DNA of 64,000 bases from Trichoplax adhaerens (GCF_000150275.1 NW_002060951.1:2256323-2320322); one strand, 5' to 3'; shown: positions 1-18,560, numbered from the stretch's first letter. Made by a program: numbers and translations. Notes: generated by a model not told the origin, from the sequence alone.

Positions 1-573
1 GTTGTAGGACTAGTATTACTAAATTAATAATGATCGTAACTTAACTACAAACTGCATCTTTCTACGGTATATAAAGAAGTGTAACTATAAAAAAAGTATG
101 AAATTACTATCTAACATCGTATGACTTTTAACAAAAATATGCCATAGAAAATGCGTAAGTTCTAACCTGAATAAAGGAGTCAGATTTACAATATACTACT
201 ATATCAAGTAAAAGCTACAATAGTTAAGCCAAATTAAGCTATTTTTAAGGTTGCAATACTTATTAAAATACAAAAACTTGAAAGAGAATTCTAAAAATTA
301 ACCTTCCTTATATAGTGAAAAAAAATCCTCTGAAATATTAAGGTTCACCAGCCATCGGCCTATACAATTTTTTAACTAAATTAATGTGACTGCATTATAT
401 ACAATATAATATTGTACATGCATGCTACGTAATCTTCTAACTCCATTGAATGCAACAAATCGCAGTAGGCTTATGATGATTAATTATTCAGGTACCATCG
501 AGTCTTTATCGTTTTTATTTTATGAAACCTACACAATAATGAAATTGCAGTTGAAAGTGATACCGGTAGAATA

Positions 574-1688
574 TTAATGAGATTTACAGCTAGCAGTAAT
601 TTCGTCCCAGTCAGGCCAAAATCTCGCTTTCATGCGATCAGAAAACGCAACAAGATTTGAAAATTCTTCCCTAACCATCTTATTTGGCCAACTGTCTTCA
701 CTTAAGCCAGAAAGAATGTTTACGATAAAACCAAAAACACAGGCATCAATTGTTGTAGGATCGTTACCGAGGAAGAATTGCTTATTTCCTAAGGTGATAG
801 AGAGGGCCATAAGATCACCTCTTGCAATATGTCGGATTTCTTCGGGGGAATGTCTTCCCATGCCGTGACCATACATACATTTTTTTACGTAAGGTATTAT
901 CATCAATTTAAAGACGTAGTACTTGAACCATGGTAGGGGCACACACTTGCCGAACCATTCAAAATCTTCGATAAAGCGATTATATACAATTACGGCCCTA
1001 AATGTTGTAGGTAAAAGTTTTGAGTTATCATAACGAATTAATACTGTACACTTGCGCGCATATTTACAAAACAGAAAAGCTATTCGTATTACAATAATCT
1101 GATTTTTACCACTCGTGCAGTGTGGCAATTATATAAATGGAATACTCCTAGATCAAACTGATCAGCTCGTACTTATTACAGTGTTCTAAAAAACTTTATA
1201 TCTTTAGAAATGGTACTAGAAATTGCTTACCATATCGTATTTTCCTCTACAGTCTTTAATATAAAACGAGCCAATGCTTTTTGCTCGGCATCTAGGTGAT
1301 CGTCAATTTGAACATTAAATCGTTCTGTTAAAAATTCCATTATAAACGTAGAATCACAGTAGCTTTTGCCATCCAACTCTATCCATGGCATCTTATTTTC
1401 TCTACCGAAGGGGTGTCTAAGATCATGTACAAATTCAATGTTAGCCATACGAAGAAATGTCTGGAGCTTTAACACAAATGGTGACGGATTAACTATCACA
1501 GGGCAAGGTCCATCACCGTGAAGAACTACTAGACCCGGTTTTGCCAGTGGGCTCATATATTCTTTGCATTTATTCCTTGTAAAGCCATAGTAAGTTGCTA
1601 ATGATGCCATACATGACATAGCTACTACAGTGGTACCTACTGGGTGATTTAGGACGTATTCAACAATTTGGGATACATCAAACGCCAT
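574..1688 (-). CDS. FAXC-like (failed axon connections homologue; metaxin-type GST-N/GST-C fold) paralogue A. Two coding exons: 1231..1688 and 574..997, with a phase-2 intron that splits a Trp codon as TG|G
   Basis: ORF-track frames 1227..1688 and 574..1128 both lie on the minus strand. Exon 1 encodes an N-terminal hydrophobic helix followed by ...KPGLVVLHG...SPFVLKLQTFLRMANIEF...KMPWIELDG...EENTIW. The donor is TG|gtaagc at 1232/1231. The acceptor is cattTAG|GGCC at 998-1000. Exon 2 encodes RAVIVYNRFIED...YGHGMGRHSPEEIRHIARGDL...TIDACVFGF...WPDWDEI. This matches my recollection of the FAXC C-terminal GST-C region (GIGRHSPEEI...TVDATVFGHLAQ...FWPEW). Paralogues B and C have the same two-exon structure and the same intron position. 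Confidence 0.7.
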
Positions 1689-3176
1689 CTATCTATGAGC
1701 TGTATTTAGTTTTAGTTTTAAGTGAAGATCAAATTACGCACACAGTTAAGTATACAGTATTACACTACACAGCAGTGTCCTGTATTTCACAGAGCACAGT
1801 AAATAAATAATAACTTAGATCTGCTCAATCTATTTTGGCTTGAGTATAAACTGCAATATATCGATCTGTTTCTTTCGTCAATACAATGTTCACTTGAGAC
1901 CCTGTCACAGTAATAGTAATTAAAATTATGTAACAGTAAGCATTTAGATCATATTATATAGATTGTAATATGGAAAATTAAATGTGCCTATGGTTCTGTT
2001 AGAGCACAGTGCAGCAGTCAATAAGGCATGATTACAAGGGGGCATGATTAGAGCATGATCAGGGTGTGATTATAAAGCAATAAGAAAGGTGGGTATGATT
2101 ACAAGACAACAAGAAACGTTTGTTCATTGGCCTAATTCCCACTTAACCGAAAAAATTAGGAAAATCATTAGGACCAGATCAATGAGCAAGCGTTTCTTGT
2201 TGGCTTGTTCTGTAATCATGCCCTAATCTAATTTTAGTAAAATTAAATAGTTTTTAATAAGTTATGCAGCAGCAAGCGCTCAGTTAAACTTATTTACAGA
2301 TAAATTACTAGATAAATAAACGTCGAATAACTACGTTGGTTACACATCGCTGCTAGACAGCCAATCAGCACCTGCCTCGTTGGCACTAAACATGACATGT
2401 ATGAAATTTCTCAAATTATTCTGAGCAAATCCAGTCAAGAATGTGCATAAAGTTATTATTATATTAATTTAAAGATATGATCACGTTCGCTATTGCTTAC
2501 TGCAAATGATCTAATACGAAATCATTACTTCATTTGAATGACTCTTGTTTTGTTTACGAATATACGTTAATACGTTATAAAATCATGTATTGTATATGAG
2601 TGCGGTAAACTGTATCTACTGCATTTTATTCGAACAGTTCAAATAGATTGCGTATTGCTACGTATTATCAATATACTGTACATATATCTCATAATTATAC
2701 TTAATACAAGTAGTTATCATAATAATTTTAGACAGGGAAGAACATATATATTACAAGTCATATACATAACGCTATAAAATTGACTAATCAATAAAATTAA
2801 TTAATAAATGGTATAGTACTGTATATTGTACACTACCGTGCAACACTCGTAACTTTACATCATACGCTTACAATACGTACATGTGTGTGCATAGTAGTGA
2901 TAGTACGCATTTTAAGAATGATGCAAAACCGATGATGTCATTATTATATAAACAATATGTATTGGCTTATAGCATAGATATTTATTGAGAGCATTTCAAG
3001 ATACTCCTCATATCCTTTTATTGCTGGTTTTATTCGAGCTCGCATCTTGTTATCTGCATTAACATCAGCAACATCTATAAGTTAAGCTATTAGCTGCATC
3101 CATTTCATGTTCAAACTTTAATATACTCCTATAATAATCTTATTCCATTCCATCTACGAATCTACATCGTATAAAT
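1689..3176. promoter_or_regulatory. Divergent (head-to-head) intergenic region between FAXC-like paralogues A and B. Presumed bidirectional promoter. It contains the MITE-like insertion at 2091-2223
   Basis: The two ATGs, at 1688 (minus) and 3177 (plus), face away from each other across 1.5 kb of AT-rich sequence. No other ORFs are present. Confidence 0.4.
2091..2223. mobile_element. MITE-like non-autonomous element (about 133 bp) with roughly 35-bp terminal inverted repeats. It is preceded by degenerate tandem copies of the TIR head motif GCATGATTA (2026-2105)
   Basis: Left arm gggtatgattacaagacaacaagaaacgtttgttc (2091-2125). Right arm 2185-2223 (gagcaagcgtttcttgttggcttgttctgtaatcatgccc), whose reverse complement gggcatgattacagaacaagccaacaagaaacgcttgctc aligns with the left arm apart from one 5-bp indel. 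Upstream repeats: ggcatgattacaag, ggcatgattagagcatgatcaggg, tgtgattataaag. Confidence 0.5.
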
Positions 3177-4274
3177 ATGACATCAAATATAGATTACATT
3201 ACAGATTTTCTTGGAAAGAACCCTTATCCAGTCATTGCCATTACTATTATTGGCATTGGAAGCTGCTACTTCTATATAACAGGTGGTCGTAACTCCAAAT
3301 CTAAATCATTTCCTAAAAGTCCGTTGGCTAAACCTGGTTTGGTTGTCCTTCACGGTGCTAACCCTGGCAGTTCAATTGTCAATCCATCACCTTATGTGTT
3401 AAAGCTGCAAACATTTCTACGAATGGCAAAGATCGAATATGTATTTGATCGTAATAACCCTATGGGTAGAAAGGGGAAAATGCCTTGGATCGAGCTTGAT
3501 GGAGATGCTTATTGCGATTCTACTTTTATAATTGAACATCTGACAAAAAAATTCAATGTATCTATTGACCGTAGCCTTAGCGAGCAGCAAAAAGCAGTGG
3601 CTCGAGTTATCCAGAAAACGATTGAAGAGAATACAATCTGGTACTACAAATTAAGCTGATTTTTTATGATGTTTACGACCAGGCTCATTTAGAATGCATG
3701 GTAGTTATATTAATTAATTATTTTAATATATCTATGCGTGTAACATGTATGCTTATACATATGACGTAAACGTGTATATACGCATCTAGCTACAACTTTA
3801 CATTTCATTGTATATATATATGTCATATTGTACAGTAATATTTGACTGTTAATTTATAGGGCTACAATAATTTATAATCGCCTTATTGAGGAGGCTGACT
3901 GGTTTCTAAACATGATGAAATTTCCCTGGTTTGTTGGGGTAATATTCAAGTTATTCTTTGTTCCTCCAGTTAAGAAGAACTTGTACGGACATGGTATCGG
4001 CAGACACACACCCCAAGAGATTAGGCACATTGCCAGAGGCGATCTGGCAGCTCTGTCTGCCCTGCTTAAAGATAAATCGTTCTTTCTTGGTGATCAACCC
4101 ACTACAATAGATGCGTGTGTTTTCTCCTTTACTGCTAATATTATATATGGGTTACGCCCTGGAAGCTGGCCAAATGAAATGATCAAAAGCGAATTTCCGA
4201 ATCTTGTAGCATTTACAAATCGTATGAAAGAGAATTATTGGCCTGATTGGGACGAAATTATTAGCAAAGCATAA
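3177..4274 (+). CDS. FAXC-like paralogue B. Exons 3177..3640 and 3860..4274 (879 nt, 292 aa)
   Basis: ATG at 3177. Exon 1 ends ...EENTIW with the donor TG|gtacta at 3640/3641. The acceptor is ttatAG|G at 3859/3860. Exon 2 reads ATIIYNRLIEEADWFLNMMKFPWFVG...YGHGIGRHTPQEIRHIARGDLAALS...TIDACVFSF...WPDWDEIISKA*. The spliced CDS is exactly 879 nt, the same length as paralogue C. B is about 70% identical to A and C across the GST-like core. Confidence 0.7.
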
Positions 4275-4376
4275 CGTTAGCTTGAAAAATTATCGTAAAT
4301 TGCTATCATGAAGAGGACACTGCAGCTCTAAGATCAATTAATTATATGACCTTGAAAAAGCCTCATCCATATTTGT

Positions 4377-4990
4377 GTCACGGACTAGTACGAATGTACG
4401 GTTATACCGGTGCATATAGTAGTCCATGTTTGTGCAATTTTTAGTAATGTAGAAAAGTTGGTTAGTGAAGTGTGATGTAGCTATGGACCACTACATGCTT
4501 TACCATAAAGCATCTACCGAGGTCCATGTTGTAGTAAGTATGCTATGCTACAGCTGTTTCTGATAAAGAAATGTTAATCTATGTATAATGTATGGCCGAC
4601 TTATTTCAGATTACAATTATGTATAATTTGATCACCGGCTCCTTTATAGCTGAGGGCACTAAATTTTGAGAGCCATTTTAAAATTCTTACTGACTGTGAA
4701 TCTATGTTTAAAAATGTAACCAAGTTTAGCCCCATTTTGTATTAGACAAAATAATTTGTAAATTTTCTACTCGTGTATTAAAATAAAATTAATACGGTAG
4801 AGACAAGTTATGATTCTGGTCATGGTTAAATACACCTATCGGTACAACTGCTCATGATACTTGGCATACTCGTACCATATTTAGTATAAAGCTAGAATAA
4901 CGCACATAACCCACAGATCAATAGAAGTAGGTTTTCTTAACGTGGTCCGTGACTAATCACGTAAGCTAGACCATGGACCACTAGAAATAC
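4377..4990. repeat. Cluster of short dispersed direct and inverted repeats. It may be a degraded transposon remnant downstream of FAXC-like B
   Basis: gtcacggac (4378-4386) pairs with gtccgtgac (4947-4955) as an inverted repeat. atggaccacta occurs at 4484 and 4972. tccatgtt occurs at 4424 and 4523. The region has no long ORF. Confidence 0.3.
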
Positions 4991-6037
4991 TGTAGGAAGG
5001 CACTATCTGGCATGAGTTGCGGGTACACAGCCGTAAACTACAGTCTGTACTCTCAGTAGAGCTTAGCAACAGGCAATGCAATGGAACGTAAATTACTATG
5101 TATTAGTAAGTAATATTACTTACTTACTTTTAGAAAAAAATCAGTCAATTCAGAACCGACTGTCTTCATACTGAAGTCATAACGAGGTATATGACTTAAT
5201 TTGTTGACGAAATAAGGCCAAGTGTCCGTCCGCCCGCAGGAGTGTCCATTGTCCATTCCTGTCTGAGCTTACGAAGTCAAAAAGTTTTGGCTGCTGTTAT
5301 ATGTAGTCAAAGGCAATTTGTGAAATTATAGCAATACTATCTGTAAAGAAGAAGCTCAAAATCATTTACCTGTTCGTTAGTCTGCATTTAACTTTAAGGA
5401 TCGAGGATTCAGGTATGAAGTGATTTATACATACTGTACTGTATAGTATAATTTGTTTTTTAATTCCGTACCGTATCATTGGACTATTTTATAGCTCACC
5501 AGTATTCACATTACTCAAATTCTACTAGTATCAGCAATGCAGAGTCCTATTGACACCTGTTAACAACTGCATAAGTGCATTGTTGATCGTGGAGATTACG
5601 ACAGTCTCTAGCTCTTGAGATTGTTGTAAGTAATGTTGGAAATGATTCAGCACTGTTCTAATAATAAAGCAAAAGGATTAACTGCGAAGCTGTGTGCAAT
5701 AAGATCTATAAAACACGCAATGCATGTACTGTACGCATGGTGTAATGAGAGTTCCACTCATTGCATTTTTCGTACGCGTACAAGTTAAATTAAATTTTAT
5801 TTTAATTTTACTTCAATATTCGTATTTATTGTGCTAGGTTAATACGGGCGTTCTAACAGTGTTTGTAACCGGCAGACGGTAACCAGAATACGACTCATCA
5901 TTATTTATTGGCCTACGGAAGTCAGGTGTTGAGTGTCTTCAGTACTATACACCCTTGGGAGATCTTGCATTGGGTATTCTGATATACTGTAATAAGTTAA
6001 CACTAAATATAATAATATTTAAAAGCATAGCCGGCAT

Positions 6038-6080
6038 TACTGTACTGTACAGTGTACACTACCTGAGACACTACAGTACT
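6038..6080. repeat. Short GTAC palindromic array 20-60 bp upstream of the FAXC-like C ATG
   Basis: The sequence reads attactgtactgtacagtgtacactacctgagacactacagtactc. Confidence 0.6.
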
Positions 6081-6100
6081 CAACAATAAAGTTAAACAAG

Positions 6101-7587
6101 ATGAACTTTGACCTGTCGTCGCCCATAAATTTCGCCAGCAGCAATCCGATTGCAGTGGGATCTTTAATAGTTTTATGTGTCGGAGGTTATTTATACATGA
6201 GCAAAAAAAAGCCAAAATCATTCCCTAAAAGTGCCTTAGCTAAGCCAGGGTTAGTCGTCCTTCATGGCGCTGGAGCTGGGAGTACTGTAGTCAATCCATC
6301 ACCGTTCGTCTTGAAGTTACAAACCTTTTTACGAATGGCTAACATCGAATTTGTCCACGATTTGAAAAATCCGTGTGGTAGAAAAAATAAGATGCCATGG
6401 ATTGAGCTTGATGGAGAAGACTACTGTGATTCTACATTTATCATTGAGTTTTTAACGGAAAGATTTAACGTTCAAATTGATAGCCATCTAAGCGACGAAC
6501 AAAAGGCCGTAGCTCGAGTTATTCAGAAGACCGTTGAAGAGAATACAGTATGGTAAGTTAATTTTTTTATTATACAGTTGACTTCAACCGCGATCGCTTG
6601 CTATAATTATATAATCCGTGTAAGTATATACAGTATTTTATGTAATGTAAAGCGTACTATCTGCAAGCCTTTAGTCTGTGTATTGGAGATACGCAAGCTA
6701 CGAATTCTAGATTGAATTCAAACAGAGTGACTTGTTGTACCTTAGGACAACATCATTAGAGGCTTTACATCTATACATCTAATTAACTTCAGGCTTATTC
6801 TAAAATTAAACAAGCTTGTAACGAATCGGCATAGTTTACTTTACTACAGCTTGTATTATTTCCAACCATATTAACTAACGATGCTGCACGCGTTAAATAT
6901 TACCTGTAAATGAACCTAATGTAGCGGCTATAACGATAGTGATACGAAAAACAGGTTTCAATCGAATTAAGATAAAATTGTATTGGCAATAAAGTAGGCA
7001 AATTTTTAATATGTTATAATGTAATGCAATTATTTTTGAGTCTACGACAGTCCCTATCTTAAAATGGCGATCTATTGTATGTCTATTTGGTCTTAAATTT
7101 CTAATAGCCAACTGTAGTAGTGGATCCGTAATAATTTTATCATTGATTATATAACTATAGGGCTGCAATCATCTATAATCGTTGGATTCAAGATACCGAT
7201 TATTTCCGTCAGATGATGAAGCTCTCCTGGTTTGTTGGCCGGATATTAAAGATGGCTGTTGTACCTGCAATTAAGAAAAGCATGTACGGCCATGGAATTG
7301 GTAGGCATTCCGCAGAAGAGATTCAGCACATAGCTAGAGGTGACATTAAAGCGCTCTCGGATCTGCTTAAGGACAAGCAGTTTTTTTTTGGTGATAAACC
7401 GACTACAATCGATGCTTGTGTGTTTGCTTTTCTTGCCAATGTTCTTCATGGTTTGCGTAAAGATAGTTGGCCGGCTGAAATGGTAAGGAACGAATTTCCT
7501 AATCTTGCAACTTACTTTGAACGCATAAAAGAGAATGTTTGGCCAGACTGGGATGAAATCGTTAGTAAAGCTGGCTCGAAAAAATAA
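6101..7587 (+). CDS. FAXC-like paralogue C. Exons 6101..6552 and 7161..7587 (879 nt)
   Basis: ATG at 6101. Exon 1 ends ...EENTVW with donor TG|gtaagt at 6552/6553. The acceptor is ctatAG|G at 7159-7160. Exon 2 reads AAIIYNRWIQDTDYFRQMMKLSWFVG...YGHGIGRHSAEEIQHIARGDIKALS...WPDWDEIVSKAGSKK*. The intron phase and position are identical to paralogues A and B. Confidence 0.7.
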
Positions 7588-7801
7588 GATCAAGTATTAT
7601 ATAGTAACAACTTTATACTTTGTAGTTTTAGTGATTCATAAGATTATAACTTTGCTTTTATAAAGGCAGCGATAAAAGATATAGATATATTTAATGAATC
7701 TGTTACTCATTTAAAAAATTGGATTAGACTAGTAAACTACCATATTCTATTTTTACGAAATTGCTGACGCGTATAAAAAGCAGGAATTCAACTGCGACAC
7801 T

Positions 7802-8050
7802 ATTCGATAATAGGCAAGTTCTTATGGGATTTATCGGACTGTTTTATATGGTAGAGCAACTATAAGGGACTAACCATCCTTTTTTGCTATTACTTACGTA
7901 ATGCTCTACACTTAATTCGTTGCTTATACAATATTCGATAGTAGACAAATTTTTATGAAATTTATCGAACCGTTTTATGTGGTAGAGCAACTAGAAGGGC
8001 TAAACATCCTTTGCTTTTACTTACGTAATATTGTATACTTAATTCGTTGC
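7802..8050. repeat. Tandem duplication. Two copies of about 120 bp with a period of about 131 bp and about 85% identity
   Basis: Copy 1 (7802-7923) reads attcgataataggcaagttcttatgggatttatcggactgttttatatggtagagcaactataagggactaaccatcc...cttaattcgttgct. Copy 2 (7933-8050) reads attcgatagtagacaaatttttatgaaatttatcgaaccgttttatgtggtagagcaactagaagggctaaacatcc...cttaattcgttgct. Confidence 0.7.
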
Positions 8051-9036
8051 TAAGAAATACTGATGTACCTCGATATATTATTATTTACGGTCCAGTATTT
8101 GACGTCTCCCAAGCTAAGCGTCTGATACAAGCCGCAGCTTATATGGCTCTTTAAGAAAATAACACAATAAAGTCAATATAATTTTAATATTTAGCTTCCA
8201 AAATAACTATTCAATGATGCTTAGACATATCTTAGTGGAAGCGTTGCTATTTCCAATTGTTTTACTCCATTGATCTGCAGAACGAAGGTTTGCATGAGTT
8301 TTATCTTTCGTACTGGATTCGCGAATACATAATTATTAAATCACCTTAACATAACCATTACCGCAACTCTTGCAAATAACGCTATGAAAATGTCTTGGAA
8401 TTTTTTTTCATGATGGCTTGAGCTGCCGCCTGCATAATTTATAATCGTATTACTCTTATACTCGTACATGTATGTCAGCAATTCAAGTTAAAGCTTGACG
8501 AATTATAAATACTATTTCATTCTCCTTTCATTTAAATATAAATGTTGTTAATATGAGAGAATGATCTTTGATATTATTATAGTTTTGTTTCTCAAAGAGT
8601 ATTTATCATTACTATTAGCTACCGTTATTGCAGAGCCGAGAGGATTTGACCGGTCTAAATTTGCAGTGATAGTGTAACATCCAAGATCCCGTGATCTTTA
8701 CAAGTAATTAATTATTCACTGAAGACTACATGGAAAATTCAAGAAAAACAACAACATAGATTTGCAATTTGAGAACTGTGCACAAGAGGGGGAAGACTAA
8801 GAGTTAAAGAATCACCAAGAGTTCATATTATTCACGCAATCCCTTAAAATTTAGACGTACTAAGAATAACTATACTCATTTAGTAGTAGCAAGCATTTCT
8901 CCTACGCAAGTTAGTTTAATCTCTTTGCTAAGTTCTAATTGGAGTACTGTATAGTCTCTTAAAAATTATTCAGCTTTACATTCTTATAATTCTTATTACA
9001 CTTTGATTCACACTCGTGATTTTAGGATACCTTAAA

Positions 9037-9140
9037 GTACAGTACTCTGATTCGAACTGGTTCACACTCAGTACGATACAGTACAGTACTGTACAGTAAT
9101 TCATGGATGTACACTTGTACAGTACGTACTGTACTGTACT
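9037..9140. repeat. GTACT/GTACA palindromic pentamer array, about 420 bp upstream of the GLT1D1-like ATG
   Basis: The sequence reads ...agtacagtactctg...cagtacgatacagtacagtactgtacagtaa...gtacagtacgtactgtactgtactg. The units are GTACA/GTACT. Each run is its own reverse complement (TACTGTACAGTA). Confidence 0.75.
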
Positions 9141-9190
9141 GAAAGAGAAGACAAGCTGCTACGCAAGCGTAGCAGCTTGTCTTCTCTTTC
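9141..9190. repeat. Perfect 24-bp inverted repeat with a 2-nt spacer (hairpin or cruciform). It is followed by a partial third copy of one arm at 9191-9211
   Basis: gaaagagaagacaagctgctacgc | aa | gcgtagcagcttgtcttctctttc. The right arm is the exact reverse complement of the left arm. It lies immediately 3' of the GTAC array. Confidence 0.8.
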
Positions 9191-9562
9191 AGTACAAGCG
9201 TAGCAGCTTTGATTGATTGAATTTGAGGGTGTTGTCGATTGTGTTACCTAGATTCATTCGGTTCATCAAAGATTGCATATGAATTAGGCACTGTGCAAAG
9301 TTAGTTGTCACCCCATGAACCGTTTCTTCTTTAATAGCTTAGTAAAAGACAAAGTAAAGATGAAAATAACATGACAATTCATTTTGCACACTACTGGAGA
9401 TTACCAAACTTGCGGCCTGGTTAGATTAGACACTCAGTTAATTTGCAGCTGTTACCCGTCGGCGCTGTTATTAACAATACTGCTGTAGGCAGCAGATGAG
9501 TTAATAACTATCTATAACTATATAATTTCTGGTAAAAAGTAATTTCATTTTTCTTATTGACG

Positions 9563-12500
9563 ATGCCTTCTGTCTTGCTGTTATACAGCTCGAAGGGAAA
9601 GGAGTGCGGAAATTCATCAACTTCTGAAAGGTTGAGGTAATAAGGAAATTAAGATATTTACAATGAATATCTTACACGTACGTTAACGTTAAACTACCTC
9701 AGTATTACTAATGATAATTGTGTGTGTATTTACTATTACTTTCACAAGCGTTTATCTACTAATAATATATGGATATTTATCATTGACAGTTGATTGAATG
9801 TAAAGCATTAGGATCTGTCGTAAATTTCTTGATATTCTACGTACAGTACTATACGTAGAGCTAAGAAAGGTTCGGTTATAACTAATTAGATTATTCAGTT
9901 TTAGTTGTCTTAGGTATTTCGTTTATAAATTCAATGTAGGGGTTATGAATGATCATACTAAGATAGTGCATACTGTACAGAACAGTGTATAGTATCTTAG
10001 TATGATCATGCACTGAAATAGAATCTAATCTAATAGCACCTCAAAATTATTTCACGAAAACTCTTGAAATCTTAACAATAATATTATCATTCAATGAGGC
10101 TGATCATCACTTTGTGATTCTGTGCTATATTGTTGTAATTGCTGATAGATTATAATTATAGAACAGACTTAAAAATCACTAGACCATTAATGTAGTAAAA
10201 ATAGGTAGAACATTAGTCTGTATTCCAGGGTCATTCTGAGTAACATGTCTTCTTGTATTGGAGAAATTTACCTAGCCAATAAATCGTCGAGTCTCTAGAA
10301 ATTGACTTGTTGTGTATTCTCTAAATCCGTATTTTAGATATACTGTACTTTACTGTACATTGATGAATTATAATGGCTCATTTAGAAAATTTGTTTGTAT
10401 TCACTTTCGCCTATGTTTTAACTAGGAAATTCTAGTAGACCGTGGTTTTAGACACGCATTGATGAATTATAATATCTGCTTATTTAGGAAACTTTTAAAC
10501 CATGCAGGAATCGGATGCACATGTAAACAAATCGCTGACTTTACTGGTGCACCATCACTAAACAATTACCTCCAAGGAAATCATTTTAATTGTGTTATTG
10601 GCATTCATGCTTATCGAACTGGCAATTTGTTGATTAGTAAGCCAAACTACGAAAGAATCCTTATTGTAACTATCGTATTATACTGTAAAGGAATAAATAA
10701 TGAACTGTTCGCCGTGTCTGAGAGTAGACGTATTAAAAGCCAGAAAGATAATAAGCTTATATATAATTTGTTGTTGTGACTATAAAATACTACAGTTCCA
10801 TTTCGAATCCAAATAATATCGATTAACTCTATTGAAATTTTAATGTAATCCTACTTACAATAATTGATTGATCACTCTAAGTAATGATACAGGTAAAGAT
10901 TCTGAGTTAACTAATAGCGCTAGTAGCTTGCCAATGTATTCCTAATATTTTTGACAAGCACGCACAATTACGTCTACTTTCTTCTAGGCTGCTGCCTACC
11001 ATATGCCATAGTTTTTGCAGGTACTGACCTGAACACGCACATTCACGATGCTAAGAAAATGCCTATTATCACTGAAGCCGTTCTTGGGGCTAGGTACTAA
11101 TAAATTGTAATTAATTTGTGATATAACTGATGTTAGTATGAAATCTAACCTCGAGAAATTAACTAAACTTTCAGAATCATTCCTTTTCATATTGCATGCA
11201 CTTTTTTTGATATATTTTTTACAAGGTATTTAGTTAGTACATATATTTAGTCAGAATTGTACAGCTATTCGTATATCAATAAAATTGAGCTACTTTCGGT
11301 TTGTATTCTTGTGGATTACTGTTAGTGCAGTATAAATATATTAAAAAACAGATTATTGATTGATAGGATATTATTTCCGATATTACATAAGAGAATTACT
11401 CAGTTTATTTTTGTCTACTACAGATACTTAATTGCGTTTACCCGCTCTCATTTTAATCTAGCTATGGCTCAATGGGTGAGAGGATAAAATAAGTTTTCTT
11501 ATATAACCTTAAAAATATTGCAATCTAAACAAATGTTATATATATTTGTACCATGATATATTTTCTGATCCCGGAATATGTAGCCAACACAAATAAATAA
11601 CATTATTAAACAACCACAAAGTAAGACATAGCCTAGTAATACTAACGTAATGTAGATGATTAAAATTTAAATATTCATTTCTTATAACTGTGTAAAGACT
11701 ACAGTCTTAATTGATTCCCTACTCCCAGTAATATTTCCATAAACCCTTTTTTACATCTACCTTCAAGGTGTTGTTACAAACCCACAAAATACGTTTTCTT
11801 TTAAAGCCCATTTACAAGAGAAATTGGGTAAGTAACCTTTAAGACAATGGATCTTAATAGAACATTTAATCATGTTTCTATAAATATTACAATATTATAT
11901 TTGCTTCCTGCTATAATTTTTTGCTCGGTTCTGATAATGTACCAAACTCATCCTTTAGCTGGAATTTTTTAAGTTTGATAACAATAAATCAGTTATCAAT
12001 GGAATGTTACTCGCTTATAAACAGTCCGTCACCACCGCATTAATTTTGAATTTTCTTCCTAGGCATGCAAGAACAAAATCTACAAAACATCGTAAGATTA
12101 ATCGAGTACTAAGTCACATTGTAATAGTCTCTCAGTGTTATGAATACTATAATTAGTGGTGAATATTTAATAACAAAAATACCGATAAAGTTTCTGTTGC
12201 AACCTGAATGAGAGATATAGACTTATAAAACAACGGACTATCATCAACTACCATGCCCAATATGCAATTTTGCATGATTTTAACCAAGTTGAAAATTTTC
12301 AATCCTGTATAGACTATCTTTCTATTAGTTGCTGGCATACGACCAATAAAAGATCCTCTATTCTTAGCTGATGCTGTTTCAGGTTATTTAAATAGTAACT
12401 TGTTGCACGATTGTTAGAAGCTAATTTTAGAATATCCTATCTCGACACTTTACAGAATGGCATCGGAAAGATCCGTCAATTTATCTCGTTATAATAGGAC

Positions 12501-13306
12501 CTGAGGTAATAAACTTGTTATTTTGTGCTGCTATTTTTGAGTATAACATTTATTACCAGTACAACAGCTAAATAGATGTACTTCGAGTCTAGATCGATAC
12601 GGAATTCTCTTATAAGATGAAAGAAAATCTTTTACGGTATAGATAGAAATATAGTGCTAACGAAAACATCGATTTATATTTTTATATGCATTTTAATTTT
12701 GTTGCTTCTGTTCTGAACCTATGTAAATTTTTAGATATACTGGAGTTTATTATGTAGACTCAATTCCTCAACCAAAATTACATATGGCCTTGAGACAGTG
12801 TACAGCGTTAGTTAATTCTTCAATAAATGAAGGAATGTGTGGAGTGATCTTAGAGGTACTTCATAGTTTTTCAGGGTACAATTAAAATATCCCAGGAATT
12901 ATTAGGATCTACTTTGCCTTAAAATTATAATGAAATACTTAACATTAATTTAACCAAATAATTTCATAGGCTATGAATCTCGGTACCCCAGTAATTGCTC
13001 GAAGAAATGCGGGAAATTGCGAAATTGTTGATCATCTTAAAACAGGGTTATTATTTAATACACCAGAGGTAATATTCCCAATCTAACAAGTATAATTTGT
13101 ATAACATTAAACATATGATGTAATCTTCTCTCTTTATGAAATTGTAGGAATTTATAGGTTTAGCAAAATATCTATTGTCTTCACATCAACTAAGAGATGC
13201 TTTAGTCAGACACGCTGTTAATTATGTTGAAGCAGAGCATTCTTTATCCGAAGAGATGGAGACTTACTGTAATATCGTTCATACTATATCCGGTAAAGGC
13301 TTATAG
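9563..13306 (+). CDS. GLT1D1: Glycosyltransferase 1 domain-containing protein 1 (GLT1D1)-like gene. 13 coding exons: 9563..9636, 10488..10636, 10988..11093, 11424..11475, 11584..11620, 11768..11827, 12063..12091, 12313..12382, 12456..12505, 12593..12636, 12735..12855, 12970..13068, 13148..13306. The CDS is 1050 nt (349 aa)
   Basis: All junctions are GT-AG and phase-consistent, and the exon lengths sum to 1050. The translation follows my recollection of human GLT1D1 throughout: MPSVLLLYSSKGKECGNSSTSERLR / KLLNHAGIGCTCKQIADF...NCVIGIHAYRTGNLL / CLPYAIVFAGTDLNTHIHDAKKMPIITEAVLGAR / YLIAFTRSHFNLAMAQW / ...TNPQNTFSFKAHLQEKL / GMQEQNLQNI / TIFLLVAGIRPIKDPLFLADAVS / EWHRKDPSIYLVIIGPE / IDTEFSYKMKENLL / RYTGVYYVDSIPQPKLHMALRQCTALVNSSINEGMCGVILE / AMNLGTPVIARRNAGNCEIVDHLKTGLLFNTPE / EFIGLAKYLL...TISGKGL*. 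The matching human segments are FGVIFGGTDVN, NVHLVILGPE and [29 protein letters not shown]. Confidence 0.8.
9949..10009. repeat. Inverted repeat with 17-bp arms around a 27-bp loop that itself contains a GTAC palindrome. It is located in GLT1D1-like intron 1
   Basis: The arms are atgatcatactaagata ... tatcttagtatgatcat. The loop is gtgcatactgtacagaacagtgtatag. Confidence 0.7.
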
Positions 13307-13828
13307 TTACAGATTTACACTGCCTATAACGAATGAATAACCTGCTACATTATTTAGCTTTATAGCAATGACATGACTCGGGCATGTAAGTTAGTATCTT
13401 TGTATACATACAGTAATATATTTTGGTCAGTAATATCTTATCAAGAATGTGGTTACTATCCAATATTTATATTGTACTTCATTCATGTTTTTATCTATAA
13501 AATTTAAGCAACTTATAGCTCCTTATGCTTTATTACGATAACACACTGTATTGAGACAGTGTACGTATAAGAGCAACCCAGAGTTTTACAGAGCAAATAT
13601 ATATATATTTTTATTGATACACTGCATTCATTGGTATTTAAACATTTATTATGATACAATGTTATATGGAGTAAAATAGGTAACGGAACTAACATAAAAA
13701 TACACATTATGTGCTTCTCTTAATTTAAACGCTGTACACTATCAGAATGTGTTATCTTCTCCATCTGAAAAAATGAAATAAAATATTTCTTCAATGATAT
13801 AACGTAAATTTACAACTAAGTAGCTATA

Positions 13829-16800
13829 TCACAAAAATCTATAAGCATACAATTTCAGAACTCTATCTTTTCCTCCACTTGCAACTTTTTCTCCATCAGG
13901 GCTCCAATCAATAGCATAAACCTGTTAAAATGGAATTAGAACGTTGCAATTGGATGACTTATAAAACCTTTCACATACATAAAAGATATTGCAACTAACC
14001 TCATCAGCATGACCCGGTAAATCCATGTGTAACTTCTTACTCTTCACATCCCATACCTGTCATAAGTATTACACATTACTGAAAAGTATACTGACGGTAT
14101 TATCATGAGATAAATAACATGACACCTACTTTTAATGTGCTGTCTGCACTGCTACTCAAAAACAGCCGACTGTCAGCTGACCAAGACACCTAAAACAATT
14201 TATAAGTTGTTATCTTTAAAAGCCTATGAATGCATGTTTAATTAAGTAATCTGTAATTAGGGGAACCTGATACACTGACTTTACATGGCCACGTAAAGAT
14301 GTAATGAATCTAAGTATGGCAGAAGAGTATGTATAAGTCTCTAGCTATCGTGATAGCAATAATCTAAAGCTTTAATTGGTAAGTGAATCAAGTCATCCAA
14401 CTATCAACATTCGGTCATACCTTCCAGTGATGCCATCCCATAGTTTAACCGATTTATCAAAGGAAGCGCTGGCAATTAACCGCGTGTCCGGCGAAAAGCA
14501 TACCATATTTACAAGTTGTTGATGACCTACGATTAAGCAGTAATACACAACAAACGACGGATTGATTTAGTAGCGAGTCAGTTTCTAAAATAAAATATTA
14601 TACCCATAAACGGATCATTCCGTACCCGTCATGCGAGCTATCGGCGTTTTTTCTTTAGCAGGATGCCATAAAAACAAAGTGTAATCGTCAGATCCAGAAA
14701 CCATAAGTTCTTTCCCCGTTAGTTTCTGTTATATGAGTGAATCAATTGTTAGTAAAGTTATATGATTATTTTCAGCTACTCTAAAATAATCTTCCAAAAC
14801 TGTAATGCCCAATTGCGGTAAAATAAATTGTACAGACATACGAGAGCTAAGTTATATTTTTGAAGGGATTTTTCTTGACGATTTTTCTCTGTTGTGAAAA
14901 GTAACAATATTATCAGTTAGGCACCCGAATATCAAAAGTAAATTTCATATAGGAACACATTAAGACTCATATCTTACTTCCTCCTACTAATAATTTCTCT
15001 CCCTTAGCCGGATCATATGCACCAATACGCATGGCGTAGTCCGTATTTAAAGCCATAGTGTTAACCTATAAAATTAAAATATCGAAGGTATAAATAATAA
15101 TAAACATAAATAAAATCAGGGATTACTGTTCCAATATCGTTTACGCGTATAAATGATATTAAATACTATTAAAGTAGGATTACACACCCAATGTCCATGA
15201 CCTTGAAGGGTTCTGCATAAAATTCCCTAATTTAATTACAGTTATGTAACATTTATTTTTAATAAAATATTTTAATAGTCGATATAATTAGTTTACAAGT
15301 TTAAAAATACTAAAGTCAACTTTAATGCATCACTAACATCGCTCGCCCTCCAAACTTTTATAGTTCTGTCTTGGGAAGAAGTATATATTAAACCTTCACC
15401 GCCCCATTTCACACAAGTGACACATTGTAGATGTCCAGAAAGTACATATTTCGTTATACCAGTTACGGTATCCCATACTCGTACAGAAGCATCCTATCGT
15501 ACATACAGTAAGCTACGTTTATAAGTGCGCGAATAACTGATTTAAACTCTATAATGCCATATGAATAACTAGCCTTCGAAGAACTTGCTAAAAAGCGGCA
15601 GTCGGAATCTCTATTAAAACATCGTAATTGAGAAAAAATTATGTATGGTAGAACAAACATAATTTACTTATGATTGCGGATTAAAAGAGTACTTAGTCTA
15701 GCGTACTATTCTACTGTGTAACGAACTTGTGCATAGGTTCCCAGCTTAAGTAAGTAATCCACTGTTTGTGTCCTACTAAAACGTGCCCAATCTGTTTTCC
15801 GGTTTTGGGATCCCATAGGCAAATCTATACATAAATTTTATTTCCATTAAAAAGCTCCAATTGATCAGGTATCGCTAAACAGTGATATTAGCAGATATAC
15901 ACAACACTACAGTAAAATTTATAACATACCTCTCCTTTCTTACATCCTGAAGCTAACTTTTCTCCATCTGGTGACCAAGCAATAGATAGTATCCAATGTT
16001 TATGACCTGTAGAGTCATAACATGCAAGTTAGCATACGAATTTAAATCATTCCAGAAATTTCATTACAGGTACATGAGATAAACCTTTGCAAGTATAATC
16101 TGGAGTTTCGGTATTGATGTCCCAAAATCTAACCGTAGTATCACCAGATCCACTTGCAAGGTAGCTAAAAGACAAAAGAATTTTCAAATTCGACTTTATC
16201 CACGGTTCTTCTTATCAGATAACTATTTACAGTAGTTACCTGCCATCAGGACTGTAGGCAACAGATATTACAGCTTCGGTATGACCTGGTACGAAACGGC
16301 AATCATCAATAATTTATAACACGCGTACATTAAATGGCCTGAAATAGATTTACATGACACTACAACAATTAAAGGTCAAATATTAAGCATTCTATTTGCT
16401 TGTACTATACCTGGTAAAGTACTACTACATCGTGTAACTGACTTAACCCGAAATACGGCCTGAGGTTGGTAAACTATCTCTATAATACTTTCTGTATCAA
16501 CATTTTTTGCAGTGATAGTAGTTTGCAGGTCATCCAATATTTCTTCATTATTGAGATAAAAAGCGTAAGGTGTTGAATCATCCTACATTACAGGGATTAC
16601 AAGTGAGTATAGCTTATTTAGACAAATCGACGATAATACATACTTAATTATAAATTCTATTTTTCAAAGTCGAAAAACTCAGCTGAATAGATAACCATAA
16701 TACAATCTTACCTCATTTATAACAGCATTACAAATCAATTGAAGGCGTTTGACATCTACTTCGATCGGGACGTCTAGGGGAGAACCGACTAATTCGCCAG

Positions 16801-16899
16801 TTTCGCTCTTGAATTGCACTAAAATACGTTTATCTGTATTCGAGCTTGGATCACTAGTGGAATACAGTACGTTAGTAAAGTGAAACCATTTCAGATGTA
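13829..16899 (-). CDS. NLE1: Notchless homologue (NLE1), a WD40-repeat ribosome-biogenesis factor. Minus-strand exons listed 3' to 5': 13829..13921, 14000..14056, 14130..14189, 14267..14309, 14421..14526, 14626..14725, 14842..14888, 14978..15065, 15188..15226, 15338..15493, 15574..15610, 15727..15824, 15930..16006, 16085..16164, 16240..16285, 16411..16582, 16712..16899. The 5' end and start codon are not resolved
   Basis: The spliced translation is collinear with my recollection of human NLE1 from the NLE domain to the C-terminus. Matching stretches: ...GSPLDVPIEVDVKRLQLICNAVINE / DDSTPYAFYLNNEEILDDLQTTITAKNVDTESIIEIVYQPQAVFRVKSVTRCSSTLPGHTEAVISVAYSPDGSYLASGSGDTTVRFWDINTETPDYTCKGHKHWILSIAWSPDGEKLASGCKKGEICLWDPKTGKQIGHVLVGHKQWITYLSWEPMHK / DSDCRFLASSSK / DASVRVWDTVTGITKYVLSGHLQCVTCVKWGGEGLIYTSSQDRTIKVWRASDGILCRTLQGHGHWVNTMALNTDYAMRIGAYDPAKG...KNRQEKSLQKYNLALKLTGKELMVSGSDDYTLFLWHPAKEKTPIARMTGHQQLVNMVCFSPDTRLIASASFDKSVKLWDGITGRFITSLRGHVKSVYQVSWSADSRLFLSSSADSTLKVWDVKSKKLHMDLPGHADEVYAIDWSPDGEKVASGGKDRVLKL...*. 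All intron phases are consistent. One intron (15494..15573) appears to use a GC donor. The first listed exon has no in-frame ATG, because there is an in-frame stop at 16900-16902. The initiator must therefore lie in an unresolved upstream exon. Confidence 0.88.
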
Positions 16900-18167
16900 T
16901 CGCACAAATTTAACGTTTAGCGGAAGTATGATTAATAATATGAAAACATACTGTACATTGCAGCACAGTAATATAATATAAGAACTGTTAAATTATCATT
17001 GCAAATAAAATTGACTTGTTTGATAAGCATTTATACGTAGTAGCATCTATCATTGGTCAAAAGTATAATAAATGTCCTTGTATATGGTAGTACGTATACC
17101 AATAACTGGTTTCTACTGTTATTAACGGAATAAAAATAATGTAAGAATTGCAAATCTTAGTATATCAAAGCATCGTACCGTACCTACAGTATGATCAGAA
17201 ATTTATTTCTATACGAAGACACCTTAAACATGAATGTTCTACAGGTACAGTAATGAATAGAGATGCAACTAGTGACAACCTGACAACATGTCCTCGTGAT
17301 TGATGATAAAATTAGGTTATCTCATTGAGATATTATAATGATATATATACTAATTAATGCATCATTGACATCGAGATTTACAGTAAATATATCATCGGTG
17401 AACTGATCTGAGCTTGTTGCAGTTGCATCTTACAATGCATACACTATTCTACTGTATAAGATCCTTAAAAGGTGTGAGCTCATTATTGCAACTCGTTTTA
17501 TATTCATATTTCGCAACACAATGTCCTAAAAGTAAGTCATTATAATACATCCAAATGCAGTACAGTACGCAGTAAATATTGAAGACTCATTGACAAGGTA
17601 AGCTTTTAAGACTGCAATCAATGCGCCTAACAGTCACTCATTAATAACTGATAAAATCAATAAATCAGTACTTGCAAACTACAGTATGTGTACAAATGGA
17701 AGTACAATGTAATCGGATTATAATTACGGTATTTATCAGTCGTATTACAGAACTACCTATCTTCCAATTCAATATGTTACAGTGTTACTGGACAAGTACA
17801 CATGCTCTACAATTCCGTTAGCCATATAAATTGGTGTAATTAATCATGGCATCAAACATGTTTCCCTGTTCTAAGGCATGTTTCTAGCTTTCAGAGTTTT
17901 GAAGTCTACAAGCATTTGCATAAGCGTTTTTGCATTGCTGGGTGGTGAGTTGTGCTGCACCAAACTCAAACGGATACAGTACTACACGAAAGATTGAAAA
18001 ACATTCTACAGCTATCCCAAGCAAGGCAAATCAACAGCTAACCTCATAATGTCATGGAAATTTATCGTTAATCGTTCAGCTTTAAAAAATATTACCAAAT
18101 TTACACATCTAATCTACCATGTACAGCAGTGTCTGCAACTTAGCAACTTCTTTATTTCACTTCGAAG

Positions 18168-18560
18168 TAGAGTACTGTACGTACTGTACACTGTACAGTA
18201 CAGTACAGTCACCTCACTTGACTGTACGCTTGCACAGTAGCCAAAAAATTTTAAATTTCATAGTGTTCACTGTACTGTACAGTGTACAGTACTGTAAGTT
18301 GGAGTACTTTGTACTGTACTGTACTGTACTGTACGTTCAAGACTAAACTGCACGTGCCAACAAATCGATATTGTGATGTGACGTGGCGACTAAAAGCGTA
18401 CAGTATTCCAGTACTGTATTGTACTGTACTGTACTGTAGTGCTGTGCAATGAGTGTCCATACAGTACAGTACACTGTACAGAACAGTACAACTTCTCGTT
18501 AACGAATGATCTCGATAAATTTCTTTTTCTTTCTCATACTGTACTGTACACTGTACGTAG
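18168..18560. repeat. Large GTACT/GTACA palindromic array cluster in the NLE1/TMED2 divergent intergenic region
   Basis: Runs include gtactgtacgtactgtacactgtacagtacagtacag, actgtactgtacagtgtacagtactgt, gtactgtactgtactgtactgtacg and gtactgtactgtactgtag...acagtacagtacactgtacagaacagtaca. Spurious Y/S/T/V-rich ORFs (18049-18595) are translations of this repeat. Confidence 0.8.

What the first reader, a model, noticed from the sequence alone, without database searches (positions are those of the whole stretch)
9141..9211. Perfect 24-bp hairpin abutting a GTAC array upstream of GLT1D1
gaaagagaagacaagctgctacgc-aa-gcgtagcagcttgtcttctctttc is an exact inverted repeat with no mismatches in 24 bp. It is followed by a partial extra copy of the arm (agtacaagcgtagcagcttt). 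Perfect stems of this length are rare by chance and are not maintained without selection or recent origin. Candidate explanations are a transposon terminal or foldback element, a small-RNA (miRNA or hpRNA) precursor, or a replication- or recombination-generated palindrome.
Basis: seen in the sequence. Interest (0 to 1): 0.55.

Follow-up and report, generated by a model that had tools for sequence, protein, structure and literature searches.

The report
Template-switch palindrome in Trichoplax promoter region
The perfect hairpin is real, but it is a recent copying accident: DNA synthesis briefly switched strands and wrote an inverted copy of the neighbouring 33 bases. It is present in the Trichoplax adhaerens reference and absent from its closest sequenced relative, so it is an ordinary mutational scar, not a transposon end or an RNA gene.

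Summary
The window is Trichoplax adhaerens (H1). The hairpin is real and longer than reported. It has perfect 30-nt arms (9135-9164 / 9167-9196) with a 2-nt spacer, is unique in the 64 kb, and is far beyond chance.

The orthologous locus of Trichoplax sp. H2 is about 99% identical over 17 kb. It carries only the left arm, followed by TTGGCCGAT. In H1 those 9 nt are replaced by 45 nt. These 45 nt are exactly two overlapping reverse-complement copies (33 nt and 15 nt) of the sequence just upstream in the H2-like state. Both copies include the complement of TTG, which H1 itself has lost. The junctions share 1-2 nt of microhomology. Rebuilding H1 from H2 with these rules reproduces 158 of 158 bases.

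The inverted spacer (TT to AA) marks an inter-strand template switch, the "3-1-2-4" type of the four-point model, followed by a second excursion. This also explains the "partial extra copy of the arm".

The adjoining GTAC array is the known (ACAGT)n microsatellite, which dominates Trichoplax promoter regions. It is the only badly rearranged stretch between H1 and H2 here.

A transposon terminus and a conserved small-RNA gene are not supported. Polarity has no outgroup, and the difference may be allelic. Interest is low to moderate.

The parts
9027..9141 (.). (ACAGT)n / (WGTAC)n pentanucleotide microsatellite array (the 'GTAC array'). It is quasi-palindromic because the GTAC core is its own reverse complement. 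Its last 7 nt (TGTACTG, 9135-9141) form the outer end of the left arm.
   Evidence: There are 12 GTAC in this span, and TRF finds period-5 arrays. This is the motif reported as the dominant Trichoplax microsatellite, 54% of copies lying within 1 kb upstream of genes (PMC2871265). Its length and unit order differ strongly between H1 and H2.
9135..9164 (+). Left arm of the palindrome. This is the pre-existing (ancestral) sequence and served as template for the inverted copy.
   Evidence: H1 9130-9164 is 100% identical to H2 L002 13409-13443, in the same orientation and the same flanking context.
9165..9166 (+). Spacer AA. It is the reverse complement of the TT that follows ...CTACGC in the H2-like state, i.e. 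an inverted spacer.
   Evidence: H2 reads ACGC-TTG-GCC where H1 reads ACGC-AAG-CGT. H1 9164-9196 equals the reverse complement of H2 13414-13446 at 33 of 33 positions.
9167..9196 (+). Right arm. This is newly synthesised sequence, a reverse-complement copy of the left arm (first template-switch excursion, 9164/9165-9196). H2 lacks it.
   Evidence: H2 has no counterpart in the + orientation. The only H2 match is the reverse complement of its own left-arm region.
9195..9209 (+). It is the reverse complement of H2 13432-13446 and overlaps the first copy by the 2-nt microhomology CA (9195-9196).
   Evidence: It is a 15 of 15 match to the reverse complement of the last 15 nt of the ancestral 33-mer, and a direct repeat of 9164-9178 (D7).
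9210..9221 (+). Return point. Collinear sequence TGATTGATTGAA resumes here (H2 13453 onward). H1 lacks the 9 nt TTGGCCGAT (H2 13444-13452) that lie between the left arm and this point in H2.
   Evidence: Alignment A2 and the reconstruction. No copy of GGCCGA, TTGGCC or similar exists in H1 8000-10500 on either strand.
9563..9565 (+). Context only: the start codon of the GLT1D1-like glycosyltransferase gene. The palindrome ends 367 nt upstream of it.
   Evidence: The H2 gene call L002 13806-17567 (+), with PF00534 Glycos_transf_1, maps to window 9563. ATG is read there.

Best explanation
The palindrome is the scar of a short-range template-switch mutation. It is not a functional element.

**Ancestral state (preserved in Trichoplax sp. 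H2).** [ACAGT array]-TGTACTGAAAGAGAAGACAAGCTGCTACGC-TTGGCCGAT-TGATTGATTGAA.

**Proposed sequence of events, described on the + strand.**
1. DNA synthesis reached ...CTACGC.
2. The growing 3' end left its template and paired by a single base (C with the G of TTG) to the opposite strand.
3. It copied that strand backwards for 32-33 nt. This wrote AA, then the reverse complement of the preceding 30 nt, and ended 7 nt inside the ACAGT array.
4. It dissociated and re-primed at the same TTG through a 2-nt CA:TG match.
5. It copied 13 more nt, which produced the extra partial arm.
6. It returned to the original template at TGATTG, skipping 8-9 nt.

**Net result.** 9 nt are replaced by 45 nt, giving a flawless 30-bp stem with an inverted 2-nt spacer.

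**Shown versus inferred.**
- Shown: the sequence relationships, base for base.
- Inferred: that the H2-like state is ancestral, that the switch was inter-strand at a replication fork (from the inverted spacer), and that the events happened in one step rather than two.
- Inferred: that the quasi-palindromic ACAGT array promoted the event, from its adjacency and its hypervariability.
- No function is implied. The palindrome could extrude as a cruciform, or be a fragile site, about 370-430 nt upstream of the GLT1D1-like start codon.
For: 1. The window is T. adhaerens: ORF 7213-7587 is 100% identical to TRIADDRAFT_28700.
2. The H2 ortholog locus L002 (GCA_003344405.1) is collinear with window 1-17220 at 98.7-99.0% identity.
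3. H2 has the left arm (35 of 35 nt identical) but no right arm. TTGGCCGAT stands in its place.
4. H1 9164-9196 equals the reverse complement of H2 13414-13446 (33 of 33). H1 9195-9209 equals the reverse complement of H2 13432-13446 (15 of 15). Both include the complement of TTG, which H1's own left side no longer has.
5. Applying the three-junction rule to the H2-like sequence reproduces H1 9100-9257 exactly, 158 of 158.
6. The H2-specific 9 nt have no possible template in H1 8000-10500, so the reverse direction needs untemplated bases.
7. The H2 sequence does not fold (-4 kcal/mol, z -1.2), whereas H1 gives -36 kcal/mol, z -11.
8. An inverted spacer is the signature of the '3-1-2-4' event type and of inter-strand switching in the four-point model (PMC5453318). 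Template switches are documented to create perfect hairpins in one step (PMC8794818).
9. Elsewhere in the 17 kb, H1 and H2 differ by 0.67-0.70% substitutions and by indels of 14 nt or less. The single unalignable block is 8965-9209, the ACAGT array plus the palindrome.
Against: - No outgroup could be obtained, so polarity rests on parsimony and on about 3 informative bases (AA, plus the A at 9197) beyond the palindrome itself.
- Junction microhomologies are short (1, 2 and 1 nt).
- A strict four-point event allows one excursion. Here two are needed, or two successive events.
- The H1 and H2 assemblies are consensus sequences of two haplotypes, and the lineages share alleles at most loci (PMC6057997). 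The difference may therefore be allelic rather than lineage-specific, and its age is not fixed.
- No independent H1 reads or contigs could be found to confirm the reference assembly at this site.
- The sequence alone cannot fully separate a replication-fork switch from break-induced or polymerase-theta-type repair synthesis that uses a trans template.
Confidence: 0.8

Rival explanations
1. Double-strand-break repair rather than fork-associated switching. A break in or next to the fragile ACAGT array was repaired by polymerase-theta-type end joining (SD-MMEJ/TMEJ) or by MMBIR. Iterative microhomology-primed synthesis produced the templated inverted insertion and the 9-nt deletion.
For: - The event is a small deletion plus an insertion templated from within about 35 nt of the junction.
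- There are 1-2 nt microhomologies at all three junctions and two rounds of priming at the same site.
- This is the scar pattern described for SD-MMEJ and TMEJ (PMC2943611; abstracts of PMC7165422 and PMC4912351).
Against: - Simple cis snap-back of the left 3' tail would keep the spacer as TT, giving A X' TT X A'. The observed spacer is the inverted AA, so the template had to be the complementary strand or another molecule (sequence logic; PMC5453318).
- After resection, that complementary strand is not normally available at the same end.
- A POLQ gene in Trichoplax was not examined.
Confidence: 0.25
2. The palindrome is ancestral and H2 lost it. Long perfect palindromes are unstable, so the right arm plus the extra copy was deleted in the H2 allele and replaced by filler.
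For: - Palindromes are deletion-prone (general knowledge).
- No outgroup was available to polarise the change.
- The surrounding array has clearly changed in both lineages.
Against: - H2's TTGGCCGAT has no template anywhere in H1 8000-10500, so this direction needs 6-9 untemplated bases.
- The opposite direction explains all 45 H1 bases by copying.
- H1's CAA motifs are the exact complement of H2's TTG.
- A 60-nt palindrome with zero arm mismatches fits a young origin.
Confidence: 0.07
3. Terminus or whole body of a miniature foldback or MITE transposon that inserted into a GTAC target in the array.
For: The 54-nt core TGAAAG...CTTTCA is flanked by GTAC on both sides, which could be read as a 4-bp target-site duplication.
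Against: - H2's site is not an empty site. It keeps the entire left arm as unique sequence.
- 15 nt of the 'element' recur in the flank.
- The arm is unique in the 64 kb and absent from the rest of the 21-kb H2 locus.
- GTAC is palindromic and is simply the array unit.
- Trichoplax transposons make up about 0.13% of the genome and appear inactive, with a single MITE family of about 20 copies (PMC2871265).
Confidence: 0.02
4. A small-RNA (miRNA or hpRNA) precursor maintained by selection.
For: - The fold is very stable on both strands.
- There are sub-threshold cmscan hits to unrelated miRNA hairpin models.
- Trichoplax has Dicer, Drosha and Argonaute (PMC2655684), and DGCR8 was later reported on H2 scaffolds (PMC6057997).
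- Template switching can seed new miRNA hairpins in other animals (PMC10710096 abstract).
Against: - The hairpin is absent from the closest relative.
- The best Rfam score is 33 bits against a gathering score of 85, and the hits go to several unrelated families, which means structure-only matches.
- A perfect 30-bp stem with a 2-4 nt loop is unlike animal pre-miRNAs, which are imperfect hairpins of about 80 nt (PMC2655684).
- Small-RNA sequencing and homology searches found no miRNAs in Trichoplax (PMC2655684, PMC3563456).
Confidence: 0.03
5. Assembly or cloning artefact in the T. adhaerens reference, for example a template switch in a clone or a chimeric read.
For: - In-vitro and in-clone polymerases make the same kind of inverted chimeras (general knowledge).
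- No independent H1 sequence could be retrieved here.
Against: - The reference is a multi-fold Sanger shotgun consensus from independent clones (general knowledge of Srivastava et al. 2008; not checked here).
- The event is embedded in otherwise collinear sequence with clean flanks.
Confidence: 0.04

Closest known systems
Short-range template-switch mutations (four-point model of Löytynoja & Goldman 2017, event type 3-1-2-4; classical Ripley quasi-palindrome strand switching)
   Same: [quoted passage not shown]
- The flanks are collinear.
- The event creates a perfect inverted repeat with an inverted spacer in one step.
- Only 1-2 nt of identity are present at the switch points.
- It is accompanied by a small deletion.
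   Different: - Two successive excursions onto the same template are needed, whereas the four-point model explicitly covers one.
- The copied fragment (33 nt) and the resulting 30-bp stem seem large for such events (from memory; no length distribution was read here).
- The event abuts a quasi-palindromic pentanucleotide microsatellite.
Template-switch origin of RNA hairpins and de novo miRNAs (Mönttinen & Löytynoja 2022; Mönttinen et al. 2023)
   Same: The same mutational route yields a perfect stem-loop from non-hairpin ancestral sequence (abstract).
   Different: - There is no evidence here of transcription, processing or retention.
- The loop is 2-4 nt.
- No miRNAs have been detected in this organism.
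Polymerase-theta / SD-MMEJ templated insertions ('snap-back' synthesis; Yu & McVey 2010)
   Same: - Deletion plus insertion.
- The insert is templated from flank within tens of bp.
- The insert forms an inverted repeat.
- Junctional microhomologies and iterative priming are present.
   Different: - The spacer is inverted, which a cis snap-back cannot produce.
- The insertion (45 nt) seems long for SD-MMEJ junctions (from memory; analyses 1-3 bp insertions in detail but also reports longer complex ones).
(ACAGT)n microsatellite of Trichoplax (Wang et al. 2010)
   Same: The 'GTAC array' at 9027-9141 is this motif. It lies within 1 kb upstream of a gene, as most copies do.
   Different: The palindrome itself is not part of the microsatellite. 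Only its outer 7 nt are.

Membership tests
Short-range template-switch mutation (four-point model) | The novel fragment is a reverse-complement copy of sequence lying close by in the reference (ancestral-like) sequence | tested here: met
   H1 9164-9196 is the reverse complement of H2 13414-13446 (33 of 33). H1 9195-9209 is the reverse complement of H2 13432-13446 (15 of 15).
Short-range template-switch mutation (four-point model) | Flanking fragments F1 and F3 are collinear with the reference, and the switch solution explains the whole cluster of differences | tested here: met
   Alignment A2. The reconstruction is identical to the observed sequence over 158 nt.
Short-range template-switch mutation (four-point model) | Switch-point order 3-1-2-4, giving an inverted repeat with an inverted spacer (diagnostic of an inter-strand switch) | tested here: met
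   Point 3 is at H2 13414, point 1 at 13443, point 2 at 13445/6 and point 4 at 13453. The spacer changes from TT to AA. The definition is from PMC5453318.
Short-range template-switch mutation (four-point model) | A single switch-and-return event (one 2->3 fragment) | tested here: not met
   Two reverse-complement fragments overlapping by CA are required. This means either one event with re-priming or two successive events. The model's authors exclude multiple rounds.
Short-range template-switch mutation (four-point model) | The reference state is ancestral (polarity confirmed by an outgroup) | tested here: inconclusive
   No outgroup was retrievable. Other placozoan contigs are 85% or less identical at protein level and do not reach the site. 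Parsimony favours H2-like as ancestral.
MITE / foldback transposon terminus | Multiple dispersed copies sharing the same terminal inverted repeat | tested here: not met
   The arm is unique in the 64-kb window at up to 3 mismatches. In the 21-kb H2 locus the arm region of the query matched only the orthologous site (whose printed window list was truncated). There were no hits in metagenome contigs. The whole genome was not searchable.
MITE / foldback transposon terminus | A related genome shows a clean empty site (one target copy and none of the element) | tested here: not met
   H2 retains the complete left arm at the site and lacks only the right arm and the extra copy.
MITE / foldback transposon terminus | Target-site duplication flanking the inverted repeats | tested here: inconclusive
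   GTAC flanks a 54-nt core on both sides, but GTAC is palindromic and is the unit of the adjoining array.
Animal miRNA precursor / Rfam miRNA families | Score at or above the family gathering threshold | tested here: not met
   The best hit is mir-883 at 33 bits against a gathering score of 85. The other hits go to unrelated families at 20-30 bits.
Animal miRNA precursor / Rfam miRNA families | The hairpin is conserved in related lineages | tested here: not met
   The H2 orthologous sequence has no hairpin (-4 kcal/mol, z -1.2).
Animal miRNA precursor / Rfam miRNA families | Small RNAs of about 22 nt map to one or both arms | not testable with these tools
   No read data are accessible. Published small-RNA sequencing reported no miRNAs in Trichoplax (PMC2655684).
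SD-MMEJ / polymerase-theta snap-back templated insertion | Insertion templated from the flank, junctional microhomology, and an accompanying small deletion | tested here: met
   A 45-nt templated insert, microhomologies C, CA and T, and a 9-nt deletion.
SD-MMEJ / polymerase-theta snap-back templated insertion | The product is consistent with cis fold-back of the 3' tail on itself (spacer retained in its original orientation) | tested here: not met
   The spacer is inverted (AA instead of TT), so a complementary-strand or trans template is needed.
SD-MMEJ / polymerase-theta snap-back templated insertion | Dependence on POLQ | not tested

The most novel reading that the evidence does not exclude
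The quasi-palindromic (ACAGT)n arrays in front of most Trichoplax genes may be systematic hot spots of inter-strand template switching. If so, they would keep seeding new perfect hairpins in promoter and 5' regions. Some of these could be transcribed and diced into endogenous siRNAs, in an animal with several Dicers but no detectable miRNAs. The 9135-9196 palindrome would then be a newborn example caught before decay. The conserved but imperfect hairpin at 9946-10012 would be an older one.
Probability: 0.06. Interest if true: 0.55.

Novelty: new member of a known kind. Interest (0 to 1): 0.27.

Why it matters
This is a clean, base-for-base example of how one replication error creates a flawless 30-bp hairpin from non-hairpin DNA. 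Both the 'before' and 'after' states are preserved in two nearly identical genomes.

It warns annotators that a perfect stem is not evidence of function. It also links the event physically to the enigmatic ACAGT microsatellite of placozoan promoters, which is the only strongly rearranged stretch in 17 kb of H1/H2 comparison.

If a genome-wide scan showed such events to be enriched at ACAGT arrays, that would give the arrays a mutational role. On its own, this locus is an ordinary neutral scar.

Tried and rejected
- **Independent copies of the H1 locus.** Exact look-ups of window ORFs 7213-7587, 9189-9311(-) and 9103-9216(+), and of P0001, found nothing on record.
- **Outgroup.** The only other placozoan contig with the neighbouring FAXC-like exon (L001, Logan SRR30660616, 85% amino-acid identity) ends 60 nt after the gene. 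Nothing closer exists in the protein collection.
- **Extending the H1/H2 comparison beyond 17 kb.** Two protein searches with exons at 30.5 kb and 25.1 kb returned only proteins 57-84% identical from other placozoans, not the H1 or H2 models.
- **Metagenome scan for the 24-nt arm.** Zero hits, which is uninformative for a placozoan.
- **Rfam at a permissive E-value.** Only sub-threshold, structure-only hits to unrelated miRNA models.
- **MAFFT global alignment of the array region**. It misaligned the palindrome. It was replaced by BLAST coordinates and a narrower alignment.
- **An earlier idea of mine.** I had proposed that the ancestor already held a 12-bp hairpin X'-AA-X that was merely extended. 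This is now only a possible intermediate, because H2 shows TTGGCCGAT there.
- **MITE with a GTAC target-site duplication.** Rejected because H2 keeps the left arm and because 15 nt of the 'element' recur in the flank.
- **The 22-nt H1-specific insert in the array (about 9112-9133) as part of the same event.** It shares ACACTTGTACA with the reverse complement of H2 12922-12932. I judged this too weak in array sequence.

Full report
**1. The observation**

The sequence at 9141-9211 is as described, but the perfect inverted repeat is longer. The arms are 30 nt (9135-9164 and 9167-9196), 100% complementary, with a 2-nt spacer AA (I1). The outer 7 nt of the left arm (TGTACTG) are the last units of the GTAC array. 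The 15-mer CAAGCGTAGCAGCTT occurs twice, at 9164-9178 and at 9195-9209.

- The arm is unique in the window even with 3 mismatches allowed.
- A centre-out scan of all 64 kb finds only this hairpin and an 18-nt palindrome inside another array (18817-18853). Twenty Markov-1 simulations gave none.
- The composition-based expectation for a perfect 30-nt inverted repeat is about 1.6e-11 per window.
- Folding z-scores are -9.4 and -11.8 for RNA and -11 for DNA.

**2. Where the window comes from**

ORF 7213-7587 is 100% identical to TRIADDRAFT_28700 of Trichoplax adhaerens, so the window is the H1 (Grell) reference. The palindrome lies between two genes. One is the last of three tandem FAXC/GST-like genes, which ends at 7587. 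The other is a GLT1D1-like glycosyltransferase whose ATG maps to 9563 (H2 gene call; sequence). The palindrome therefore ends 367 nt upstream of that start codon.

The 'GTAC array' is the (ACAGT)n pentanucleotide, known as the dominant Trichoplax microsatellite. It makes up 78% of pentanucleotide repeats, and 54% of copies lie within 1 kb upstream of genes (PMC2871265). In this window GTAC occurs 443 times against about 195 expected, and 20 arrays of three or more units were found.

**3. The decisive comparison**

The 90% cluster of TRIADDRAFT_28700 also contains the Trichoplax sp. H2 protein. Its encoding contig gave locus L002, which is 21.5 kb of GCA_003344405.1. L002 is collinear with window 1-17220 at 98.7-99.0% identity. 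Substitutions run at 0.67-0.70%, and no indel exceeds 14 nt outside one block. That block is 8965-9209, the array plus the palindrome.

Within it, H2 reads ...GGATGTACTGTACTGAAAGAGAAGACAAGCTGCTACGC-TTGGCCGAT-TGATTGATTGAATTTGAGGG. H2 therefore has the left arm (H1 9130-9164 equals H2 13409-13443, 35 of 35) but neither the right arm nor the extra copy (alignment A2). The H2 sequence does not fold (-4 kcal/mol, z -1.2).

**4. Anatomy of the H1-specific 45 nt**

- H1 9164-9196 is the exact reverse complement of H2 13414-13446 (33 of 33).
- H1 9195-9209 is the exact reverse complement of H2 13432-13446 (15 of 15).
- Both copies include CAA, the complement of the TTG that follows ACGC in H2. H1 no longer has that TTG on its left side.

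I then rebuilt H1 from four pieces:
1. the left flank up to C9164;
2. the reverse complement of the 33-mer, minus a 1-nt overlap (C);
3. the reverse complement of its last 15 nt, minus a 2-nt overlap (CA);
4. H2 from 13453 onward.

This reproduces H1 9100-9257 exactly, 158 of 158. So 9 nt (TTGGCCGAT) were replaced by 45 nt, every one of them templated by the adjacent sequence. The opposite polarity would need TTGGCCGAT to appear de novo. No GGCCGA, TTGGCC, TGGCCG or GCCGAT exists on either strand in H1 8000-10500.

**5. Mechanism**

The spacer is inverted: TT in the H2-like state, AA in H1.

- A cis fold-back of the nascent or resected + strand would keep TT, giving A-X'-TT-X-A'.

This is the '3-1-2-4' event of the four-point template-switch model. 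That event 'creates an inverted repeat separated by an inverted spacer' and is taken as evidence of inter-strand switching (PMC5453318). Such events are documented to create perfect hairpins in a single step (PMC8794818).

What is unusual here is a second excursion that re-primes at the same TTG through CA:TG and writes the 15-nt partial arm. Alternatively there were two successive events: a 15-nt event first made X'-AA-X, and a hairpin-extension event followed. The first excursion ended 7 nt inside the ACAGT array. The GTAC cores of that array are self-complementary.

The array is the only stretch in 17 kb that is grossly restructured between H1 and H2. It measures 244 nt in H1 against 602 nt in H2, and unit order and orientation differ. 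A role for the array in stalling or strand exchange is an inference from this adjacency.

**6. Rivals**

- **Break repair with templated insertion (SD-MMEJ/TMEJ or MMBIR).** It shares the scar features: a deletion plus a templated insert, microhomology, and iterative priming (PMC2943611). It needs a trans or complementary template to invert the spacer. I keep it as a close mechanistic variant, at about 0.25.
- **H1-like state ancestral.** About 0.07, for the parsimony reasons given above.
- **MITE or foldback terminus.** About 0.02. H2 is not an empty site, the arm is single-copy, part of the 'element' recurs in the flank, and Trichoplax transposons are scarce and inactive.
- **Selected small-RNA gene.** About 0.03. 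It is not conserved, the loop is 2-4 nt, and Rfam gives only sub-threshold hits (33 bits against 85). Literature searches and small-RNA sequencing found no miRNAs (PMC2655684; PMC3563456). I note that the older 'no Pasha' statement is dated, because DGCR8 was later reported on H2 scaffolds (PMC6057997).
- **Assembly artefact.** About 0.04. No independent H1 data could be retrieved.

**7. Caveats**

The H1 and H2 assemblies are consensus sequences of two haplotypes each, and the two lineages share an identical allele at most loci (PMC6057997). 'Present in H1, absent in H2' may therefore mean 'present on one allele lineage'. The event is dated only loosely, by the roughly 0.7% divergence of the compared haplotypes. 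No outgroup was available.

**8. Verdict**

It can now be stated precisely as a short-range inter-strand template-switch mutation with re-priming, next to an ACAGT microsatellite.

It is a new instance of a known kind of mutation, with no evidence of function. Its main value is as a textbook-clean example, and as a pointer to test whether ACAGT arrays are template-switch hot spots.

Noticed in passing
window 18166-18880 (also 34552-34725, 41540-41967, 42690-42709, 44494-44508, 57053-57111, 62981-63063): There are dense, interrupted (ACAGT)n/(ACTGT)n arrays that flip orientation within an array, for example the perfect 18-nt palindrome at 18817-18853. The largest cluster lies between the 5' end of a Notchless-like gene (- strand) and the ATG of a TMED/p24-like gene at 18994, which looks like a shared bidirectional promoter region. 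Another lies about 400 nt upstream of a delta-tubulin-like ATG at 57507. This agrees with the reported promoter association of the motif (PMC2871265).
   Followed up: partly
L002 12850-13173 (H2) versus window 8965/8966: H2 carries about 325 nt that are absent from H1 at this point. Inside that segment, L002 12897-12946 is an imperfect (86%) inverted copy of L002 13259-13305 (GAACTGGTTCACAC plus array). H2 therefore has a larger and older inverted duplication around the same array. Whether H1 lost it or H2 gained it is unknown.
   Followed up: partly
window 9108-9134: H1 has 22 extra nt inside the array (ACTTGTACAGTACGTACTGTAC) relative to H2. The 11-mer ACACTTGTACA matches the reverse complement of H2 12922-12932. 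This may be another templated piece, but the evidence is weak in repetitive array sequence.
   Followed up: partly
window 9946-10012: A second, imperfect hairpin: 31-nt arms, 84% complementary, a 5-nt loop, and ACTGTACAGAACAGT at its centre. It lies just downstream of GLT1D1 exon 1 and is identical across the hairpin itself (9946-10012) in H2 (one substitution in the flank). It may be an older, decayed product of the same process.
   Followed up: partly
window 574-7587; L002 733-11479: A tandem family of FAXC/GST-like genes (GST_N_4 plus GST_C_6), two exons each. Three copies lie in the window (one on the - strand, two on the + strand). H2 shows a fourth copy further upstream.
   Followed up: no
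window 10358-10374 and 10457-10473: An exact 17-nt direct repeat, CATTGATGAATTATAAT, spaced 99 nt apart. The first copy directly follows a short ACTGT array at 10340-10364. A 93% copy lies at 8495-8508.
   Followed up: no
window 6046 (H1 insertion TGTACAG) and 8944 (H1 insertion GTACT): Two of the eight H1/H2 indels of 4 nt or more outside the rearranged block are unit gains or losses in ACAGT motifs. This is consistent with the arrays being the most mutable sequence in the region.
   Followed up: partly
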